From a virus (lineage: Duplodnaviria; Heunggongvirae; Uroviricota; Caudoviricetes): a stretch of DNA of 8,001 bases. Made by a program: the position numbers and the translations under genes. This document shows, piece by piece, positions 1 to 8,001 of the stretch. The stretch's first letter is position 1, and every line of letters starts with the position of its first letter. The DNA is taken from IMG/VR virus record IMGVR_UViG_2698536408_000011; one strand, written 5' to 3'. Under the pieces are notes generated by a model. The model was not told the origin of the DNA and made no database searches. It worked only from the letters and a program-made list of their open reading frames with translations.

Positions 1-794
<794 letters not shown>

Positions 795-821
795 ATATGT
801 ATTTTCTCTGTTAAGCGTGAG

Positions 822-874
822 CTACGTGAAAAATAATTTTTGGTGTGGGTATTAACTTTGCTTTATTCACGTAG
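822..874. repeat. Inverted repeat, perfect 9-bp arms (CTACGTGAA / TTCACGTAG) with 35-bp AT-rich spacer, just downstream of the tape measure stop codon
   Basis: Read directly: 822-830 against the reverse complement of 866-874. Confidence 0.6.
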
Positions 875-886
875 AACACCGTTAAA

Positions 887-3067
887 TCATTCTTCCTCTG
901 GATAGCTTGAACTTAAGAGCATATCCTGCGTGAACTGGTCATTAGCTGATTGATTGAAAGTAAAGAAAGATGGTTCATCTGGTCGAACGACAACTTGACC
1001 ACCAAGTGAAACTTTCACTGGCTCCTGAATACGCTTACTCAAAGCACTAATTTCATCCCTCAGACCCTGAATATCTGCACTCGTTAATGCTGAATCTTGC
1101 TTAATGTTGTTTAACTCTGGATGATTGAATCTTGCAATATTCATTGTGGCATTGTTAAACAATTCACCCATTGAACTAAAAATTCTACTCCATCCTTCGT
1201 TAATCATATTCGGTTTATTAGGGTCACCAGAATACACGGGATTAAAGTCACTACCCACACCTACCCCAGACGGATGCATATTAGCGTTTTTGACTACTTC
1301 CTGATTCATAAAATCCAGTGCTTTCTTCAATGCATATAAACCAAGAGTGACGCCTCTGATTTGTGGAATCATTGAAGCTAATGCTAACGCTGTTTCATAA
1401 CCGTCATCAGCATAACCAATTGCAAGAGCACTACCTACACCACCAGCTACACCTTTCAGTTTTCCACCACCTTTACCAGTAGCTACCTGACCAGCCACCT
1501 GATTAGCTCTTGTACCTAACGTTGTGATTGCTCTTGTCAGGTTCATAACCCCTGTAGTAGCACTGAATAGCGTCTTTGCAGATAACGCTATAGCAAGACC
1601 TTTGACGAAGTTGATAAAACCATCACCGACTTCATCAAGTAGTTTTCGTTTAGTGTCATCAAGGCTGTAATAGAACTTCTTAGTCTGTAAAATCCAGCCT
1701 TCAATGGTGTTATTGAATACGCGAATATCATCTACACCAGCTTTAAGCATGTCGATAAGTCCACCGATAGCATCACCAGCGATAGAAGAACTCATCCCCA
1801 TTTCACTAAGCAGGTTACTCAGGCTGGATAAGAAGCCGTTTAGCTCATCCTGTGAACCTGAGAAGATTTTCACCATCGTATCATCCCAATTGTTTGCTAA
1901 CTTACCTAAAGCTGTCTGAGTGCTCTTAGTGACTTCAGCCCAGCCACCCGCTTTATCAATCATCAAGCCCATCTGTTTAGCGACTTTAGGGAGAGTATCA
2001 GCGGAAAGTACCTTCCCGTTTTTCATGGCTGCATCAAGCTCTGTAGCAGTCATACCCAATGCTTCAGCGAATAGCTTAAATGCACCAGCCATACGGTCAC
2101 CTAACTGCCCACGTAATTCCTCAGCCTGAATCTTGCCCTTGCTCGCCATCTGCTCAAATGCTCTCAAAATGCCGTTTAGCTCATCGTTAGAAAGCCCCAT
2201 TAAGCGACTCATAGCCGTTGCATTACCAAATAGCTCCTGTGTCTGTTCCTGTGACATAGAACCCTGAGCACCTGCTGCAAACTTAGCGTAGCTTGATAGC
2301 CCTTCAGAGATATTAAGACCTGTCTTGTCTGCTAAATTTCGAATAAATACCTCAGCTTCAGATGCTTTATCACCAAGTACAAACTTAGCGGCTCTCTGTG
2401 CGGAATCTCGTTTAAGACCTGCATTCATAATGGCCTTGTAAGCGTTAAGAGCACCCATCACAGAGTAAAATGCACCAGATAATTTAATCGCATTGCTTGC
2501 AAGATTATTAAATGCGTCGCTTGTATTGTTAATGCTGGCGGTCTTTGTCTGTGACCTGAGTTTATTCAACGTTTCACGAAGAGATTGATTTAATTTTGCA
2601 AGTTCAGCGTTAAACTTTTCACTTCCAATATTACCAGCCTTACCGCTTAAGCTGTAATACTGTGCTTTAAACATTTTAGCCATCAGCGGATTAATATCAC
2701 CAAGCTTAGACATATTCACGCTATGCGCTGCTGTGATTGCTCTGTTTCCGCTAATTCGTGGTTGCCTTGATTGTTTTGGAGGATTAACAGTGTCATTAAA
2801 TCTGGTGGCAAACTGAAATGCTTTTGTGCTTCTTGCTCTCTGCTCAATCTTGTCAAAGGTCTTATTAAACTTCCTTTCAAGCTGCCCTAAAGAACTTGTC
2901 AGATTGCTGTCAAGTTGCTTGGTATCGACCTTAAACGCTCTATTCAAATTGCGTTCAATTCTTTGTGCTGACTGCAAAGCTGCCTTTTCAACTCTTTGCA
3001 AGCCCTTAATAACGTTTTCACTGAAACTAAGTTCAACGATAAAACTATCAACTGTGAATTTGCTCAT
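887..3067 (-). CDS. Phage tail tape measure protein (726 aa)
   Basis: ATG at 3067..3065 follows AAGAGGTGA with 7-nt spacing. The N-terminal third is alpha-helical and coiled-coil-like. The central region (SRLMGLSNDELNGILRAFEQMASKGKIQAEELRGQLGDRMAGAFKLFAEALGMTATELDAAMKNGKVLSADTLPKV) matches the conserved tape-measure domain pattern (GK-x-x-x-EELR-x-QLG-x-R-x-x-GA). A Gly-rich hydrophobic stretch (GKGGGKLKGVAGGVGSALAIGYA) follows, as in lambda gpH-type proteins. Stop is TGA at 887-889. Confidence 0.85.
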   Translation of the reverse strand: MSKFTVDSFIVELSFSENVIKGLQRVEKAALQSAQRIERNLNRAFKVDTKQLDSNLTSSLGQLERKFNKTFDKIEQRARSTKAFQFATRFNDTVNPPKQSRQPRISGNRAITAAHSVNMSKLGDINPLMAKMFKAQYYSLSGKAGNIGSEKFNAELAKLNQSLRETLNKLRSQTKTASINNTSDAFNNLASNAIKLSGAFYSVMGALNAYKAIMNAGLKRDSAQRAAKFVLGDKASEAEVFIRNLADKTGLNISEGLSSYAKFAAGAQGSMSQEQTQELFGNATAMSRLMGLSNDELNGILRAFEQMASKGKIQAEELRGQLGDRMAGAFKLFAEALGMTATELDAAMKNGKVLSADTLPKVAKQMGLMIDKAGGWAEVTKSTQTALGKLANNWDDTMVKIFSGSQDELNGFLSSLSNLLSEMGMSSSIAGDAIGGLIDMLKAGVDDIRVFNNTIEGWILQTKKFYYSLDDTKRKLLDEVGDGFINFVKGLAIALSAKTLFSATTGVMNLTRAITTLGTRANQVAGQVATGKGGGKLKGVAGGVGSALAIGYADDGYETALALASMIPQIRGVTLGLYALKKALDFMNQEVVKNANMHPSGVGVGSDFNPVYSGDPNKPNMINEGWSRIFSSMGELFNNATMNIARFNHPELNNIKQDSALTSADIQGLRDEISALSKRIQEPVKVSLGGQVVVRPDEPSFFTFNQSANDQFTQDMLLSSSYPEEE

Positions 3068-4107: not shown

Positions 4108-4282
4108 TGCTTTTCCTCTTCTAAGCGGAAGTGTTTCAGTTTTTAAAAAGCACACCTGACAGCCTATCTAAACTTAGAAGAGACTTAAAAGGCGGTTTGC
4201 CAAGTATGCTTTTTAAAAGCTGAATAGCCCTAGATAATTTCTTATAAAGGGCCATTCATAAGGTGAAGAAATTAAAACATCT

Positions 4283-4304
4283 AAAGGATTCAAAAAGGAT
4301 TCAA
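4283..4304. repeat. Tandem direct repeat, 2 x 11 bp (AAAGGATTCAA), in the long intergenic region
   Basis: Read directly at 4283-4293 and 4294-4304. Confidence 0.6.
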
Positions 4305-4330
4305 ACGAATGAACAAGAGTACTTTTCGAG

Positions 4331-4360
4331 ATGACCTCTCAGACTAACCTGAAAGGTCAT
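4331..4360. repeat. Strong inverted repeat / hairpin: 12-bp arms (11/12 match) ATGACCTCTCAG - ACTAAC - CTGAAAGGTCAT
   Basis: Read directly. There is no adjacent U/T tract on either strand, so it is not a canonical intrinsic terminator; an operator or RNA processing/stability element is more likely. Confidence 0.55.
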
Positions 4361-4427
4361 GTAGCGAAAAGCATTGCACCTTTCAGAATAACTATCATTG
4401 ATGTAGAATGATTAATAGTTTAATTCA

Positions 4428-4444
4428 GGAAGAGTTGCTCTTCC
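4428..4444. repeat. Perfect 7-bp inverted repeat with 3-nt loop (GGAAGAG TTG CTCTTCC), ~60 nt downstream of the micro-ORF stop
   Basis: Read directly. No U-tract follows on either strand. Confidence 0.55.
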
Positions 4445-4505
4445 CTATTACCATCATCTCATGCTTAAGGTTATTTGTCAACAGCTTTTTAACAGATTGG
4501 TAACA

Positions 4506-4583
4506 TCAATTCTTATTTACCGTATTACCTACCCAGCAACCAACAAATAACCCTAAAGTCATCCAGAGAATAACGAGTGTCAT
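4506..4583 (-). CDS. Putative 25-aa hydrophobic micro-protein (MTLVILWMTLGLFVGCWVGNTVNKN), translationally coupled to the 101-aa gene
   Basis: Its ATG (4583..4581) overlaps the TAA stop of the upstream gene as TAATG. It has a single membrane-helix-like hydrophobic stretch. It is too short for the ORF track, and a ribosome-binding site would sit inside the upstream coding sequence. Confidence 0.3.
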   Translation of the reverse strand: MTLVILWMTLGLFVGCWVGNTVNKN

Positions 4584-4888
4584 TACATCACCTCGCTGTA
4601 AGGGTTTAATTCATTCTGATAGGTCAAGAATACATTCAGCTTCAATAATTGCTCAGGGCTTAAATCAAGTCGATTGCACTCTTCAATGATAAAGCGCTTA
4701 TTGTATGGGTCTGTTACTTCCAGCTTGTGAACATAGTCACCAAGTTTAATTTCGTTGATTATATGCTTGTCAATATACGTTGACGCTTCAAAACAATGCA
4801 TGAAATAGATATTAAAGCCCGACCTGTTCAGGTCAATCAACCAATTCATGGTTTCTTGGTCAACCATAATTTGCATTGGGTAATTCAT
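4583..4888 (-). CDS. Hypothetical protein (101 aa)
   Basis: ATG at 4888..4886 follows CAGGAAGGA with 8-nt spacing. The protein begins MNYPMQIMVDQETMNWLIDLNRSGF.... I recognise no family. Confidence 0.6.
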   Translation of the reverse strand: MNYPMQIMVDQETMNWLIDLNRSGFNIYFMHCFEASTYIDKHIINEIKLGDYVHKLEVTDPYNKRFIIEECNRLDLSPEQLLKLNVFLTYQNELNPYSEVM

Positions 4889-5034: not shown

Positions 5035-5250
5035 TTAGCTCAAGTCTGAGACTAATAGCCCCATCTGGTGACCGTAGTCTTTTAACCAGCTTTGCTTAAC
5101 CGGAGTCTTCAGAGAATAGTTAGGGGCTGACAAGTGAAGATAGATATCATCTTTGCCGTGGATACTTCCCCATCCTTCGTATAACTCAAGCAAGTTTTCA
5201 AAATAACGAAATGCTTTATTAGTCTGAAGTTGTACTGTGATAGTTTTCAT
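5035..5250 (-). CDS. Hypothetical small protein (71 aa from ATG 5250; alternative ATG at 5262 gives 75 aa)
   Basis: Third gene of a coupled trio. The ATG at 5250..5248 overlaps the TGA stop of the upstream gene as TGATG. The protein begins MKTITVQLQTNKAFRYFENLLELYEGWGS.... No family recognised. Confidence 0.55.
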   Translation of the reverse strand: MKTITVQLQTNKAFRYFENLLELYEGWGSIHGKDDIYLHLSAPNYSLKTPVKQSWLKDYGHQMGLLVSDLS

Positions 5251-5471
5251 CAAGCACCCCATTCAGAAATAAGCTTAATTCCCTGCTCAAGCTGTTCAGG
5301 GTCGTTATAGTCGAGTATTACCAGTGGCTTTAATTCGTGTTTAAGCTGGTGGATTTGAGAGGGTTTTAATCGTTTGTTTGCTTTGAGGGTCACATCTTCA
5401 AATTCAGCATCTGCTAAATTCTGTCTGATTAGGTGGCGGCCAAGTGTGGAATATTGGAACCTATAACACAT
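5250..5471 (-). CDS. Hypothetical small protein (73 aa)
   Basis: The ATG at 5471..5469 overlaps the TAA stop of the 96-aa gene as TAATG and follows GGAGG. The protein begins MCYRFQYSTLGRHLIRQNLADAEF.... No family recognised. Confidence 0.6.
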   Translation of the reverse strand: MCYRFQYSTLGRHLIRQNLADAEFEDVTLKANKRLKPSQIHQLKHELKPLVILDYNDPEQLEQGIKLISEWGA

Positions 5472-5761
5472 TAAACCTCCAATCTATCCGCCAGTTGATG
5501 GACCTTAGCGCTTAACACCTGAATCATTGAGCAACCTGCTACTGCGGACTGTGCTTTGAGTAGTTCCAGTTGGCCCGTTGTGATTCTGATGGCCTTAGAA
5601 CCCTCTGCGACGCCCTTAACGTTATCGAAAGGGCTAAGGTTTACCGACTCTTTTAAAATCTCCCCAACAAGCGCTGTGTGCTTCATATCGGGATATTTGG
5701 CTTTGATTGCTGCCAGTCGTTCAAATGCCTCTGGCAAAAGGCGCGTAACTGTGTGAGTCAT
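5471..5761 (-). CDS. Hypothetical small protein (96 aa), first gene of the coupled trio; possible small DNA-binding regulator
   Basis: The ATG at 5761..5759 follows AAGGAG with 9-nt spacing; the longer ORF from ATG 5791 has no Shine-Dalgarno. The two halves (TVTRLLPEAFERLAAIKAKY... and AIRITTGQLELLKAQSAVAG...) each resemble a strand-helix-helix unit, loosely like ribbon-helix-helix regulators. This is weak and not diagnostic. Confidence 0.55.
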   Translation of the reverse strand: MTHTVTRLLPEAFERLAAIKAKYPDMKHTALVGEILKESVNLSPFDNVKGVAEGSKAIRITTGQLELLKAQSAVAGCSMIQVLSAKVHQLADRLEV

Positions 5762-5797: not shown

Positions 5798-5848
5798 ATC
5801 TTAACATCTATTTAACATATTGTCAGTACCTCATTTACATGATACTAT
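5798..5848. promoter_or_regulatory. Candidate divergent sigma70-type promoters with overlapping -35 hexamers
   Basis: Plus strand: TTGTCA (5820-5825), 17 bp, TACTAT (5843-5848), pointing at the plus-strand small ORF (ATG 5899). Minus strand: CTGACA (rc of 5821-5826), 17 bp, TAAGAT (rc of 5798-5803), pointing at the 96-aa operon (ATG 5761). Hexamer matching by eye only. Confidence 0.35.
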
Positions 5849-5898
5849 GGTTGTAGGGGCTGATACAGGTGCTGTTTCCTTTCACAAAAGGAAAATTA

Positions 5899-6075
5899 AT
5901 GCATGATTTTTTCACAGCAATTATTGAATCTCATCGTTTTAGCTCGTTGGGCTTTGCGGTATTTATTGTGCTATTGGTGTTTTGCGTTATGAATCGAGTC
6001 ATTACAAAAAAGACAAAGCTTACAATTCGACTTAAACTTCTTCGTGTTGAGATAGAGATTTCAGTAAATAAATAG
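5899..6075 (+). CDS. Putative small membrane protein (58 aa; one hydrophobic helix then a basic C-terminus); the only credible plus-strand gene
   Basis: ATG at 5899 follows AAAAGGAAA with ~6-nt spacing (the ORF track starts at an upstream GTG, 5869). The protein is MHDFFTAIIESHRFSSLGFAVFIVLLVFCVMNRVITKKTKLTIRLKLLRVEIEISVNK. It lies in an otherwise non-coding gap and does not overlap any minus-strand gene. It converges on the 98-aa gene with only 9 bp between stop codons. Confidence 0.45.
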   Translation: MHDFFTAIIESHRFSSLGFAVFIVLLVFCVMNRVITKKTKLTIRLKLLRVEIEISVNK

Positions 6076-6084
6076 CTGGTGGCC

Positions 6085-6381
6085 TTACCGGCACTTTCCC
6101 TTGATAATATTGGTGGCCCTCAGATTACCGGGGTCACCGTCTTTTAATCGTAGCTGGTGGACTGAATCCCATAAATCGTAATGATACAGCACCGCAAACT
6201 TCAAAGCGTCAATCTTTAAATCTGTCACATCATCGACGAAATAATAATCCCTCCCTTCTTTCTTCGGTCGAATCCGGTAAACTTCCCCGTGAGTATCTTT
6301 CATCAAGTAACCTTCACGAGAAATGCTGTAACGTCTGAGTAAATAGTCACGGTATTTTCTCTCGCCATTATAAGTTTTCAT
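6085..6381 (-). CDS. Hypothetical protein (98 aa), translationally coupled to the replication initiator gene
   Basis: The ATG at 6381..6379 overlaps the TAA stop of the upstream gene as TAATG and follows GGAGGAATG. The protein begins MKTYNGERKYRDYLLRRYSISREGY.... No family recognised. It sits where a helicase loader would be in lambdoid phages but is far too small. Confidence 0.6.
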   Translation of the reverse strand: MKTYNGERKYRDYLLRRYSISREGYLMKDTHGEVYRIRPKKEGRDYYFVDDVTDLKIDALKFAVLYHYDLWDSVHQLRLKDGDPGNLRATNIIKGKCR

Positions 6382-7716: not shown

Positions 7717-7863
7717 TTAGCTCAACCTTTGAGCAATCCTGTATGACGTGCTCAGAGGCATTCTGAGAGCATCTGCAATGCACTTAATGGGTTTTCCTTG
7801 CCTGTATAGTTTTATGAAGCTGTCGAGCGTCTCAGGTGGGTAAATGGTGGGTCTTCCTCTCAA
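7717..7863 (-). CDS. Short helix-turn-helix ORF resembling the C-terminal DNA-binding domain of serine recombinases (invertase/resolvase type); possibly a gene fragment
   Basis: The frame is open from 7896 to the TAA stop at 7719..7717. It has no in-frame ATG near its 5' end; the only candidate start is a TTG at 7863..7861, 1 nt after AGAGGAGG. The translation (..NRGGLRGRPTIYPPETLDSFIKLYRQGKPIKCIADALRMPLSTSYRIAQRLS) shows a Gly-Arg-Pro arm followed by three helices ending in STxYR, as in Hin/Gin-type C-terminal domains. Neither upstream frame reaching the window edge looks like a recombinase catalytic domain. Confidence 0.35.
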   Translation of the reverse strand: MRGRPTIYPPETLDSFIKLYRQGKPIKCIADALRMPLSTSYRIAQRLS

Positions 7864-8001
7864 GCCTCCTCTGTTAATGATGGTTAACGGTAATGCTTAC
7901 GTGGTTCTTTTTTAAAAACAACGACTGCACTAGGAAACGGTGAACGAATAGTAAGCCCGTTATGGCCTGCTGGTGGAAGGTATTTAACTGCACGATGAAG
8001 A

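What the first reader, a model, noticed from the sequence alone, without database searches (positions are those of the whole stretch)
5035..5761. Three small ORFan genes (96, 73 and 71-75 aa) chained by TAATG/TGATG stop-start overlaps behind their own promoter
The three genes are linked by one-nucleotide stop/start overlaps, implying obligate co-expression at fixed stoichiometry. The first protein has two strand-helix-helix-like halves and may be a DNA-binding regulator; the other two are unrecognisable. Compact co-translated sets of tiny proteins in phage accessory positions are where anti-defence proteins, host-takeover factors and small toxin-antitoxin pairs are usually found. This is a candidate for an undescribed accessory module.
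Basis: inference. Interest (0 to 1): 0.6.

Follow-up and report, generated by a model that had tools for sequence, protein, structure and literature searches.

The report
RHH regulator operon in satellite-like island
The three tiny genes are real and translationally coupled, but they head a regulatory operon of an undescribed ~11-13 kb E. coli mobile island: the first encodes a probable DNA-binding switch protein, and the other two have no recognisable relatives.

Summary
Observation confirmed. All three ORFs lie on the minus strand: g1 5471-5761 (96 aa), g2 5250-5471 (73 aa), g3 5035-5250 (71 aa). They are joined by TAATG and TGATG overlaps behind a conserved sigma-70-like promoter. All three are under purifying selection (dN/dS 0.04-0.5).

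This is not a lambdoid prophage. It is a serine-recombinase island carrying copies of two Felix-O1-type tail genes, inserted in yecE or next to wrbA.

- **Likely operator:** 11-bp-phased TGTTR repeats occur exactly twice in the window (expected 0.02). One overlaps g1's promoter; the other abuts a second promoter upstream of the tail-gene operon. Both are conserved in the related loci that cover them.
- **g2:** a small family always coupled to g1. Other islands carry a 128-141-aa long form with a resolvase-like HTH.
- **g3:** confident model, no structural neighbour. It occurs only with short g2.

"Obligate trio" is refuted. g1 alleles and the g2-g3 cassette recombine independently, and one locus has g1-g3 without g2.

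I found no evidence for a toxin-antitoxin or anti-defence role. The function of g2 and g3 remains inferred.

The parts
5798..5826 (-). Promoter P1 of the g1 operon: -35 CTGACA (5826-5821), 17-nt spacer, -10 TAAGAT (5803-5798) with upstream TG
   Evidence: Consensus scan. The region aligns across 11 loci, where the -35 is a perfect TTGACA. The promoter count in the region is not above shuffles, so support comes from conservation and position, not from the scan alone.
5802..5817 (-). Candidate operator O1: TGTTA-N6-TGTTA direct repeats 11 bp apart, in the P1 spacer and -10. In relatives a third in-phase unit, TGTTGACA, is the -35 itself.
   Evidence: The pattern occurs twice in the window against 0.02 expected, and 0 of 200 shuffles reach 2. 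It is conserved upstream of g1 in every locus that includes that region.
5471..5761 (-). g1, 96 aa: predicted single-chain double ribbon-helix-helix DNA-binding protein
5250..5471 (-). g2, 73 aa: short member of a family that always follows g1. Long members (128-141 aa) add a resolvase-like HTH.
   Evidence: Shine-Dalgarno GGAGG and TAATG overlap. dN/dS is 0.18. g2' is 51-54% identical. hhalign of the short form against the long-form N-domain gives E 5e-5, probability 67%, 63 columns. The long-form C-terminus has sub-threshold HTH_28/HTH_7 hits.
5035..5250 (-). g3, 71 aa: small alpha/beta protein (beta-alpha-beta-beta-alpha) with no recognisable relatives
4583..4888 (-). 101-aa acidic protein, next gene of the same transcription unit (146-nt gap after g3; no terminator-like site between g3 and this gene, though two lie inside it)
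   Evidence: ORF list. No terminator-like site lies between g3's stop and this gene's start; the two minus-strand terminator-like sites reported (around 4818-4836) lie inside its coding region. It occurs in two ~30%-identical types across loci. pI is 4.7.
4506..4583 (-). Conserved 25-aa hydrophobic micro-ORF, TAATG-coupled to the preceding gene. Its stop codon abuts operator O2.
   Evidence: It is present, with mostly conservative changes, in all 18 loci that contain the site.
4479..4505 (-). Candidate operator O2: three in-phase units, TGTTA-N6-TGTTA-N6-TGTTG, the last being part of the -35 of P2
   Evidence: The triple pattern has 1 match against 0.00 expected. It is conserved in the loci that include this region.
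4453..4481 (-). Promoter P2: TTGACA-17-GATGAT (CATAAT or TAAGAT in relatives). It is upstream of the 236/252-aa gene, a 68-aa gene, the tape measure gene and the Dit-like gene.
   Evidence: Best promoter match in the scan, 10 of 12. Conservation is shown.
5820..5848 (+). Divergent promoter (TTGTCA-17-TACTAT; TAATAT in relatives), whose -35 overlaps that of P1
5899..6075 (+). Divergently transcribed 58-aa membrane-type ORF. Its Shine-Dalgarno sits in an 8-bp hairpin (5875-5882 / 5887-5894).
   Evidence: RefSeq annotates this gene in L002. Homologues are 44-48% identical in other loci. A TM ORF occupies the same position in L016. The hairpin is kept through compensatory changes in the alignment.

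Best explanation
**Overall claim.** The three ORFs are the first genes of a regulatory operon in a small, undescribed chromosomal mobile island.

**Island layout.** The gene order is:
- large serine recombinase
- Dit-like baseplate gene
- tape measure gene
- two unknown genes
- 101-aa gene
- g3, g2, g1
- a divergent small membrane ORF
- HNH-like gene
- O-like replication initiator
- Dam
- small resolvase

**g1 (inferred from fold and motif).** g1 is a monomeric double ribbon-helix-helix protein. A train of g1 monomers is proposed to bind 11-bp-phased TGTTR direct repeats.
- At its own promoter P1 the repeats cover the -35, the spacer and the -10. Binding there would shut off g1, g2, g3 and the divergent membrane ORF.
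- At a second promoter P2, 1.3 kb downstream, the repeats run from the -35 upstream. Binding there would control the operon that holds the phage-derived tail genes.

**g2 and g3 (inferred from synteny only).** They are made in fixed ratio with g1 by translational coupling. g2 belongs to a family that always follows g1. In most islands it is a single longer protein with a resolvase-type HTH. Where g2 is short, g3 follows it. I therefore propose that g2 and g3 act as a two-chain partner pair that does the job of the long form, probably as a co-regulator or adaptor of the switch.

**Shown.** The genes are real and coupled. The g1 fold class, the repeat motif and its conservation, and the mosaic distribution are all observed.

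**Inferred.** That g1 is the protein binding the repeats; the sign of regulation; any g2-g3 contact; and their biochemical role.
For: **Gene reality and coupling.**

**g1 fold.**
- Beta-alpha-alpha twice in one chain.
- A 30%-identical relative in a divergent island keeps both ribbon strands (HT.TR, IRIT) and gives a weak Pfam DndE hit, E 0.02.

**Precedent.**
- AvtR is a monomer of two RHH motifs. It represses its own gene, regulates a neighbouring gene and oligomerises along DNA (PMC5569661).
- F TraY is a one-chain RHH 'dimer' that binds DNA as a train of three molecules (bioRxiv 10.1101/2024.12.19.629322).

**Operator.**
- TGTTA-N6-TGTTA occurs exactly twice in 8 kb, against 0.02 expected, and both copies are at promoters.
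- The three-unit form is expected 0.00 times.
- Both sites are conserved in the related loci that include them, across g1 alleles 69-97% identical, and in the divergent L016 island.
- Only P1 and P2 carry the motif within each island.

**Operon layout.** A hairpin at 6075-6092 separates the upstream rep operon. No terminator-like site lies between g3 and the 101-aa gene, although two lie inside that gene.

**g2 family and g3 pairing.**
- The g2 short form matches the long-form N-domain at hhalign E 5e-5.
- The long form has a resolvase-like HTH.
- g3 or g3' is present after every short g2 and absent after every long form.
- Genome counts are 20 and 36 for the two short pairs, against ~125 and ~57 for the two long forms.
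Against: - No Pfam RHH family is matched by g1 itself. The two halves show no sequence similarity to each other.
- Nothing links g1 rather than another island DNA-binding protein to the TGTTR repeats. Alternatives are the g2 long form's HTH, the Rep initiator, the resolvase, Dam's HTH tail, or a host or helper-phage factor.
- In this window the P1 -35 unit is mutated (TACTGACA instead of TGTTGACA). Two island genes, Dam and the Dit-like gene, are frameshifted, so this copy may be decaying.
- The g2 short/long homology is only 67% probable by hhalign. g3 shows no similarity to the long form's C-terminus (E 0.49).
- The free shuffling of g1 alleles against g2-g3 argues against a tight, allele-specific g1-g2 complex.
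- One contig has g3 without g2. Some g2 copies are frameshifted or truncated. g2 may therefore be dispensable.
Confidence: 0.5

Rival explanations
1. g1 is the regulator as above, but g2 and g3 are effectors rather than regulators. They would be small proteins the island uses against a helper or invading phage (for example a Felix-O1-type virus) or against host functions. That would make them interference, anti-defence or takeover factors kept under tight g1 control, as Arc controls ant in P22 immI.
For: - They are ORFan, fast-shuffling cassette genes at an allelic slot with at least four alternatives.
- The island carries tail genes up to 92-93% identical in DNA to Felixounavirus phages, implying direct exchange with those phages.
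- g3 has a confident but unmatched fold. This is typical of small phage-interaction proteins (general knowledge, not tested here).
Against: - No hit in PADLOC or any other library.
- The alternative occupants of the slot share the g2 N-domain, and the long ones carry an HTH. That looks like one conserved function rather than varied cargo.
- The proteins are neither acidic DNA mimics nor membrane proteins.
Confidence: 0.22
2. A toxin-antitoxin or abortive-infection module. g1 would be an RHH antitoxin and autorepressor; g2 and/or g3 would be the toxin. Alternatively, g2 would be the antitoxin and g3 the toxin.
Against: - No match to any toxin or antitoxin family in Pfam, NCBIfam or PADLOC.
- g1 is a complete double RHH with no toxin-binding tail.
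- Supposed cognate partners are not co-inherited: a g1 69% identical sits in front of a g2-g3 99-100% identical, and the reverse also occurs.
- g3 survives without g2, and g2 is frameshifted or truncated in some copies with g3 intact. This is hard to square with g2 being an essential antitoxin of g3.
- The slot homologue in most islands carries an HTH.
Confidence: 0.08
3. Recombination control. g2 (with g3), or the long form with its resolvase-like HTH, is the directionality or accessory factor for the island's serine recombinases. g1 would be an architectural DNA-bending protein of the TraY type.
For: - The island has a large serine recombinase and a small resolvase but no identified excision factor.
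- The long form's HTH is most similar to the island's own resolvase HTH: 37.5% over 24 aa, E 7.5e-4 in a six-protein database.
- The top structural hit of g1 is TraY, an architectural protein.
Against: - The TGTTR repeats sit on promoter hexamers, not at the island ends.
- The short g2 lacks the HTH.
- Known directionality factors of large serine recombinases act by binding the recombinase, not DNA (general knowledge).
- The HTH similarity is weak.
Confidence: 0.1
4. One or more of the ORFs is not a gene. g2 is the obvious candidate, since RefSeq leaves it unannotated in some genomes.
For: PGAP annotates only g3 and g1 in NZ_AP042687.1, and only g2' and g1 in NZ_CM165887.1.
Against: - g2 has the best Shine-Dalgarno of the three.
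- Its dN/dS is 0.18 in two independent comparisons, and its frame is kept in a 51-54% identical copy.
- It shows homology to the N-domain of annotated 128-141-aa proteins.
- g3' is likewise conserved where it is unannotated.
Confidence: 0.03

Closest known systems
AvtR of Acidianus filamentous virus 6 (PDB 4hv0), a monomeric two-RHH viral transcription factor
F-plasmid TraY (PDB 9f0x chain E), a single-chain RHH relaxosome protein
   Different: 12% identity. TraY works at oriT with a relaxase, and no relaxase or oriT is evident in this island. g1's sites lie on promoter hexamers.
Arc / P22 immI and RHH-first operons in general (Arc-ant, CopG-repB, type II TA operons)
   Different: Arc is a 53-aa homodimer, whereas g1 is a fused double domain. 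The downstream genes here are unrelated to ant, repB or any toxin.
Phage satellites that parasitise virulent phages (PLE of Vibrio cholerae; PICMI). These are the closest known kind for the surrounding island, not for the three genes.
   Same: A ~11-13 kb island with a large serine recombinase at one end (as in PLE), its own replication initiator, no capsid, terminase or lysis genes in the sequenced islands, and DNA-level exchange with a virulent phage group.
   Different: No protein homology to PLE, PICI, P4 or PICMI marker genes was seen. Induction, packaging and transfer are untested. Carrying copies of the helper-type tape measure and the adjacent baseplate gene is not a described satellite feature. 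No description of this island turned up in the library searches.

Membership tests
Ribbon-helix-helix (MetJ/Arc) superfamily, single-chain double-RHH subclass (TraY, AvtR, DndE) | Two beta-strand / helix / helix motifs in one polypeptide joined by a linker | tested here: met
   AF2 gives E3-7 H10-22 H28-35, a disordered stretch at 38-55, then E57-61 H62-75 H79-93. The model is low confidence (pLDDT 59).
Ribbon-helix-helix (MetJ/Arc) superfamily, single-chain double-RHH subclass (TraY, AvtR, DndE) | Three-dimensional superposition on RHH dimers or single-chain RHH proteins | tested here: met
Ribbon-helix-helix (MetJ/Arc) superfamily, single-chain double-RHH subclass (TraY, AvtR, DndE) | Significant match to a curated RHH, TraY or DndE sequence profile | tested here: not met
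   No Pfam, NCBIfam or PHROG hit for g1. Profile searches of PDB sequences gave nothing relevant. The only signal is a sub-threshold DndE hit, E 0.02, for the 30%-identical L016 relative.
Ribbon-helix-helix (MetJ/Arc) superfamily, single-chain double-RHH subclass (TraY, AvtR, DndE) | Sequence-specific binding to repeated operator sub-sites through the beta-ribbon | not testable with these tools
   Indirect only. The ribbon strands are invariant, and TGTTR repeats are conserved at 11-bp phase at two promoters.
Type II toxin-antitoxin systems | A recognisable toxin or antitoxin family or fold | tested here: not met
Type II toxin-antitoxin systems | Cognate partners inherited together | tested here: not met
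   g1 alleles 69-97% identical are combined freely with g2-g3, g2'-g3' or long forms. g3 occurs without g2.
Type II toxin-antitoxin systems | Toxicity of one product relieved by the other | not testable with these tools
   Needs expression experiments.
   No PHROG hit. tblastn against 50,697 phage records found none for g2 or g3, and one E 0.01 hit for g1 to a Shewanella Mu-like phage.
Known anti-phage defence or anti-defence proteins | Match to a model of a described defence system | tested here: not met
   PADLOC gave 0 families for all three genes and for the slot alternatives. No anti-defence library was available.
Resolvase-type HTH (HTH_7) proteins, considered for the g2 family | C-terminal three-helix HTH matching HTH_7 or HTH_28 | tested here: not met
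   The window's short g2 lacks the domain altogether. Only the 128-141-aa long forms show it, and below threshold: HTH_28 E 0.003, HTH_7 E 0.04; gamma-delta resolvase E 1.2.

The most novel reading that the evidence does not exclude
The island is a previously undescribed E. coli satellite or defence element directed at virulent Felix-O1-type phages. It carries the phage's own tape measure and adjacent baseplate gene. g1 would be its master switch, acting through the TGTTR repeats. The g2-g3 pair would be a new two-protein effector or sensor module that couples phage infection to the switch, or interferes with the phage.
Probability: 0.2. Interest if true: 0.75.

Novelty: new variant of a known kind. 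Interest (0 to 1): 0.5.

Why it matters
The three genes would otherwise be written off as hypothetical; RefSeq even omits g2 or g3' in some genomes.

Here they acquire a testable role. They form a compact switch: a single-chain double-RHH protein with phased repeats at two promoters. That switch appears to govern an island found, in some form, in about 9% of complete E. coli genomes. The island has exchanged tail genes with Felix-O1-type lytic phages, which are used in phage typing and therapy.

If the model holds, it gives a bacterial example of the rare monomeric double-RHH regulator class. It would also give a handle on how this island is turned on.

g2 and g3 would be two new small protein families whose partner relationship can be checked directly.

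Tried and rejected
- **Family libraries.** Pfam, PHROGs, NCBIfam and PADLOC gave nothing for g1-g3.
- **PDB profile searches.** Searches with the g1, g2-family and g3 alignments gave nothing significant.
- **Exhaustive HMM search for g2.** Against 1.84 billion representatives, it found only g2 and g2' variants plus three low-complexity false positives. It did not reach the long forms.
- **g1 internal repeat.** The two halves show no sequence similarity (hhalign E 0.17).
- **g3 versus the long form.** g3 is not related to the long form's C-terminus (E 0.49). g2 and g3 are not related to each other (E 0.058).
- **Frameshift fusion of g2 and g3.** Considered from the sequence. There is no slippery heptamer before the g2 stop.
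- **DNA-mimic idea.** Rejected: pI is about 6.8 for both g2 and g3.
- **RNA searches.** Rfam and tRNA searches of the window found nothing credible.
- **Plasmids.** No DNA match.
- **Literature.** Six searches for the island or its proteins found no description. The Tai tail-assembly-inhibition paper (PMC11364771) was opened, and nothing I read there (abstract and a term search) connects to these genes.
Full report
**1. What is in the sequence**

All three ORFs lie on the minus strand.
- g1 is 5471-5761 (96 aa). AAGGAG lies 8 nt before its ATG.
- g2 is 5250-5471 (73 aa). GGAGG lies 5 nt before its ATG.
- g3 is 5035-5250 (71 aa).

The junctions read TAATG and TGATG, so each start codon shares one base with the preceding stop.

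The longer alternatives are unlikely:
- The 106-aa form of g1 (from 5791) is unlikely because homologue clusters are almost all 96-97 aa, and that ATG lies inside the promoter.
- The 75-aa form of g3 (from 5262) is unlikely because the extra residues are absent from the divergent g3' copy.

A sigma-70-like site sits just upstream at 5826-5798: CTGACA, 17 nt, TAAGAT, with a TG. The scan found no more promoter-like sites than shuffles give. The support is therefore conservation: in ten related loci the same position reads a perfect TTGACA.

**2. The ORFs are genes**

I compared the window with copies from other genomes, using Nei-Gojobori counts on codon alignments.

| Gene | dN/dS |
|---|---|
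| g1 | 0.14-0.28 |
| g2 | 0.18 in two independent pairs |
| g3 | 0.04-0.5 |

A second version of the pair, g2'-g3', occupies the same position in other islands. It is 51-54% and 47-49% identical in protein, with saturated synonymous sites, and both frames are open.

RefSeq annotation is inconsistent. g2 is not called in NZ_AP042687.1, and g3' is not called in NZ_CM165887.1.

**3. Context: an island, not a lambdoid prophage**

The backbone of window 3000-8001 matches 501 of 5426 complete E. coli genomes, always on the chromosome. There is no match in plasmids.

Annotated relatives show a ~11-13 kb element inserted in yecE (DUF72) or between wrbA and ymdF. Its gene order is:
- large serine recombinase
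- Dit-like 'baseplate' gene
- tape measure gene
- ~70-aa gene
- ~236-aa gene (called 'transposase' by PGAP, with no family support here)
- sometimes a 74-aa gene
- 101/107-aa gene
- the slot that holds g3 and g2
- g1
- a divergent small membrane ORF
- HNH-like 98-aa gene
- O-like/HTH replication initiator (PHROG E 2e-10)
- Dam
- small resolvase

There are no capsid, terminase or lysis genes.

The tape measure gene and the next gene are copies of two adjacent Felixounavirus genes. Window 271-706 is 92-93% identical in DNA to more than 200 Felix-O1-type phages.

In this particular window the Dit-like gene and Dam are frameshifted.

**4. Distribution: the trio is not an obligate unit**

| Element after g1 | Complete E. 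coli genomes | Identity range |
|---|---|---|
| g1 itself | 127 | 69-97.5% |
| g2+g3 | 20, always both | 97.5-99.8% |
| g2'+g3' | 36 | 95-100% |
| 128-aa single gene | ~125 | mostly 90-100% |
| 141-aa single gene | ~57 | mostly 95-100% |

Combinations are free:
- The window and L003 share g2-g3 at 99-100% protein identity, but their g1 is only 69% identical.
- The window and L004 share g1 at 97%, but carry g2-g3 versus g2'-g3'.
- The upstream promoter type also recombines independently of the g1 allele.
- One contig (L007) has g1 followed directly by g3, again with a 1-nt overlap and no g2.
- Some g2 copies are frameshifted or truncated.
- In the divergent island L016, a 92-aa g1 relative (30% identity) is followed by an HNH_3 gene and then g2-g3.

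What is constant is a g1-type gene, then a g2-family gene coupled to it, then g3 only when g2 is the short form.

**5. g1**

No family library recognises g1. Homologues are confined to Escherichia, Shigella and Citrobacter.

The AlphaFold model from 29 sequences is low confidence (pLDDT 59, pTM 0.48). Its secondary structure is strand-helix-helix, a disordered linker, then strand-helix-helix.

Many ordinary RHH repressors and antitoxins follow.

The 30%-identical L016 relative keeps exactly the two strands (HT.TR and IRIT), which in RHH proteins form the DNA-reading ribbon. It also gives a weak DndE hit.

The two halves show no sequence similarity to each other.

**6. A candidate operator shared by two promoters**

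The P1 spacer and -10 contain ATGTTAA twice, 11 bp apart.

The looser pattern TGTTA-N6-TGTTA occurs exactly twice in the whole window. It is expected 0.02 times, and 0 of 200 shuffles reach two.
- One copy is at 5802-5817 in P1.
- The other is at 4490-4505, immediately upstream of the best promoter match in the region: TTGACA-17-GATGAT at 4481-4453.

That second promoter, P2, lies after the 101-aa gene and before the 236/252-aa gene, the tape measure gene and the Dit-like gene.

At P2 there are three in-phase units, the last being the TGTTGACA of the -35. The triple pattern is expected 0.00 times.

At P1 in relatives the order is reversed: TGTTGACA first, then two TGTTA units over the spacer and -10. 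A fourth, weaker unit covers the -35 region of the divergent promoter.

Both sites are present in the related loci that include the region, and nowhere else inside the islands. L016, with its divergent g1, has the same repeats beside its own promoter.

Direct repeats one helical turn apart fit a train of monomeric double-RHH proteins on one face of the DNA. TraY does this with three molecules. AvtR does it over a long stretch between two promoters, repressing its own gene.

That g1 is the binder is an inference. The island has other DNA-binding candidates.

**7. g2 and g3**

*g2.* An exhaustive profile search of 1.84 billion representatives found only g2 and g2' variants.

Synteny pointed to the 128-141-aa proteins that replace g2-g3 in most islands. 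Their first ~78 residues align with g2 over its full length: hhalign E 5e-5, probability 67%. Shared positions include HL[IV]R, D[VIL]T, a conserved Q in helix 1, DY, and LI near the C-terminus.

Their C-terminal ~45 residues give sub-threshold HTH_28/HTH_7 hits. They are most similar to the HTH of the island's own resolvase.

Neither g2 nor g3 has any match in 50,697 phage records. Both are near-neutral in charge.

Short g2 plus g3 totals 144 aa, against 128-141 aa for the long form. The strict 'short form with g3, long form without' rule suggests that g2-g3 is a two-chain counterpart of the long protein. This is inference from synteny only.

**8. Most likely mechanism and rivals**

The best-supported reading is a switch:
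- g1, made first from P1, binds the phased repeats.
- It thereby limits its own operon (g1, g2, g3, the 101-aa gene and a 25-aa micro-ORF) and the divergent membrane ORF.
- It also acts at P2 on the tail-gene operon.
- g2 with g3, or the long form, is a co-expressed partner of unknown biochemistry, possibly a second DNA-binding or adaptor component.

My rough confidence in each step:

| Step | Confidence |
|---|---|
| The genes are real | ~0.97 |
| g1 has the RHH fold | ~0.85 |
| g1 binds the repeats | ~0.55 |
| g2 and g3 are a functional pair | ~0.6 |
| g2-g3 have a regulatory rather than effector role | ~0.3 |

The rivals:
- **Effector or interference proteins under g1 control.** Not excluded, and compatible with the g1 part of the model.
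- **Toxin-antitoxin module.** Disfavoured by the lack of any toxin-like family or fold, by the free shuffling of supposed partners, and by g3 occurring without g2.
- **Recombination directionality or architectural role.** The evidence is weak, and the repeats lie on promoters, not at the island ends.
- **Non-genes.** Excluded by the selection data.

**9. Comparison with the known, and novelty**

- g1 works like AvtR or TraY and is probably a new, sequence-orphan member of the single-chain RHH class. It fails the curated-profile test, so membership rests on a low-confidence model.
- g2 and g3 belong to no described family.
- The operon logic (RHH first, coupled downstream genes) is ordinary.
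- The particular build is new: a fused double RHH, in-phase repeats that incorporate the -35 hexamers of two promoters, and a split-versus-fused partner gene.
- The surrounding island resembles satellites of virulent phages such as PLE in outline. It shares no marker genes with them, and six library searches found no description of it. That is absence in the library searched, not proof of novelty.

**10. Verdict**

It was right on g1 and on ORFan status. It was wrong on the obligate trio and on the prophage-accessory setting, and its functional guesses remain untested.
- Interest is moderate for the three genes themselves. It would be higher if the island proves to be a Felix-O1-directed satellite or defence element.

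Noticed in passing
window 1-3067 (-); L015 (phage garuso) 3740-6747: The island carries copies of two adjacent Felixounavirus tail genes. One is the tape measure gene (887-3067; pieces 88% identical in DNA to garuso_118). The other is the next gene (garuso_119; Pfam Dit_like in relatives), with window 271-706 being 92-93% identical to more than 200 Felix-O1-type phages. The ~11-13 kb element otherwise has only recombinases, a replication initiator, Dam and unknown genes. It occurs in some form in 501 of 5426 complete E. coli genomes, in yecE or next to wrbA. It may be an undescribed satellite or tail-interference element aimed at Felix-O1-type phages. No description was found in six literature searches.
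   Followed up: partly
window ~578-730 (-) and ~7720-8000 (-): In this copy the Dit-like gene stops after 50 codons and continues in another frame (break near 582-584). Dam is split between two frames near 7893. The 48-aa 'HTH_7' ORF at 7717-7863 is just Dam's C-terminus. The island copy in the window therefore looks partly decayed, while g1-g3 are intact.
   Followed up: partly
window 4506-4583 (-): An unannotated 25-aa hydrophobic micro-ORF (MTLVILWMTLGLFVGCWVGNTVNKN) is TAATG-coupled to the preceding gene. It is conserved in all 18 loci checked, whatever gene precedes it. Its stop codon abuts the first repeat of the P2 operator.
   Followed up: partly
window 5820-6092 (+): A divergently transcribed 58-aa ORF (5899-6075) has one hydrophobic segment and a basic tail. 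Its Shine-Dalgarno lies in a perfect 8-bp hairpin (5875-5882 / 5887-5894). Relatives keep that hairpin through compensatory changes (TTTCCTTT/AAAGGAAA, TTCCCTT/AAGGGAA, CCCC/GGGG). A small membrane ORF occupies the same place even in the divergent island L016. It could be a tightly controlled small membrane toxin, holin-like or exclusion protein.
   Followed up: partly
window ~4108-4445 (-): A leader of about 340 nt lies between P2 and the ATG of the 236-aa gene (4107). It begins with a hairpin (about 4427-4445, GGGAAGAG-CAAC-TCTTCC). Its stem differs between loci while staying paired (GGGAGAG/TCTCTCT, AGAGAG/CTCTCT, GAGGATAG/CTATCC). A conserved block, ATTCTGA..GGTGCAATGCTTTTCG, follows. This may be a regulatory RNA element. 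Rfam finds nothing there.
   Followed up: no
L003 9216-9437; L004 8565-8774: RefSeq/PGAP leaves g2 unannotated in NZ_AP042687.1 and g3' unannotated in NZ_CM165887.1, although both are conserved and under purifying selection.
   Followed up: yes
window 6085-6381 (-); L016 7508-7780: The 98-aa gene upstream of the divergent region ends in a DGD..N motif. Its 90-aa positional counterpart in L016 (no tblastn similarity to the window gene) hits HNH_3 at E 1.8e-5, just under the Pfam cut-off. A small HNH-like protein may therefore be part of the island backbone. In L016 it sits between the g1 relative and g2.
   Followed up: no
window 5821-5848: In this window the shared -35 unit reads TACTGACA, and the divergent -10 reads TACTAT. 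All ten relatives aligned have TGTTGACA, and those with the consensus form of the divergent -10 read TAATAT. Both divergent promoters and one operator unit are therefore weakened in this copy.
   Followed up: no
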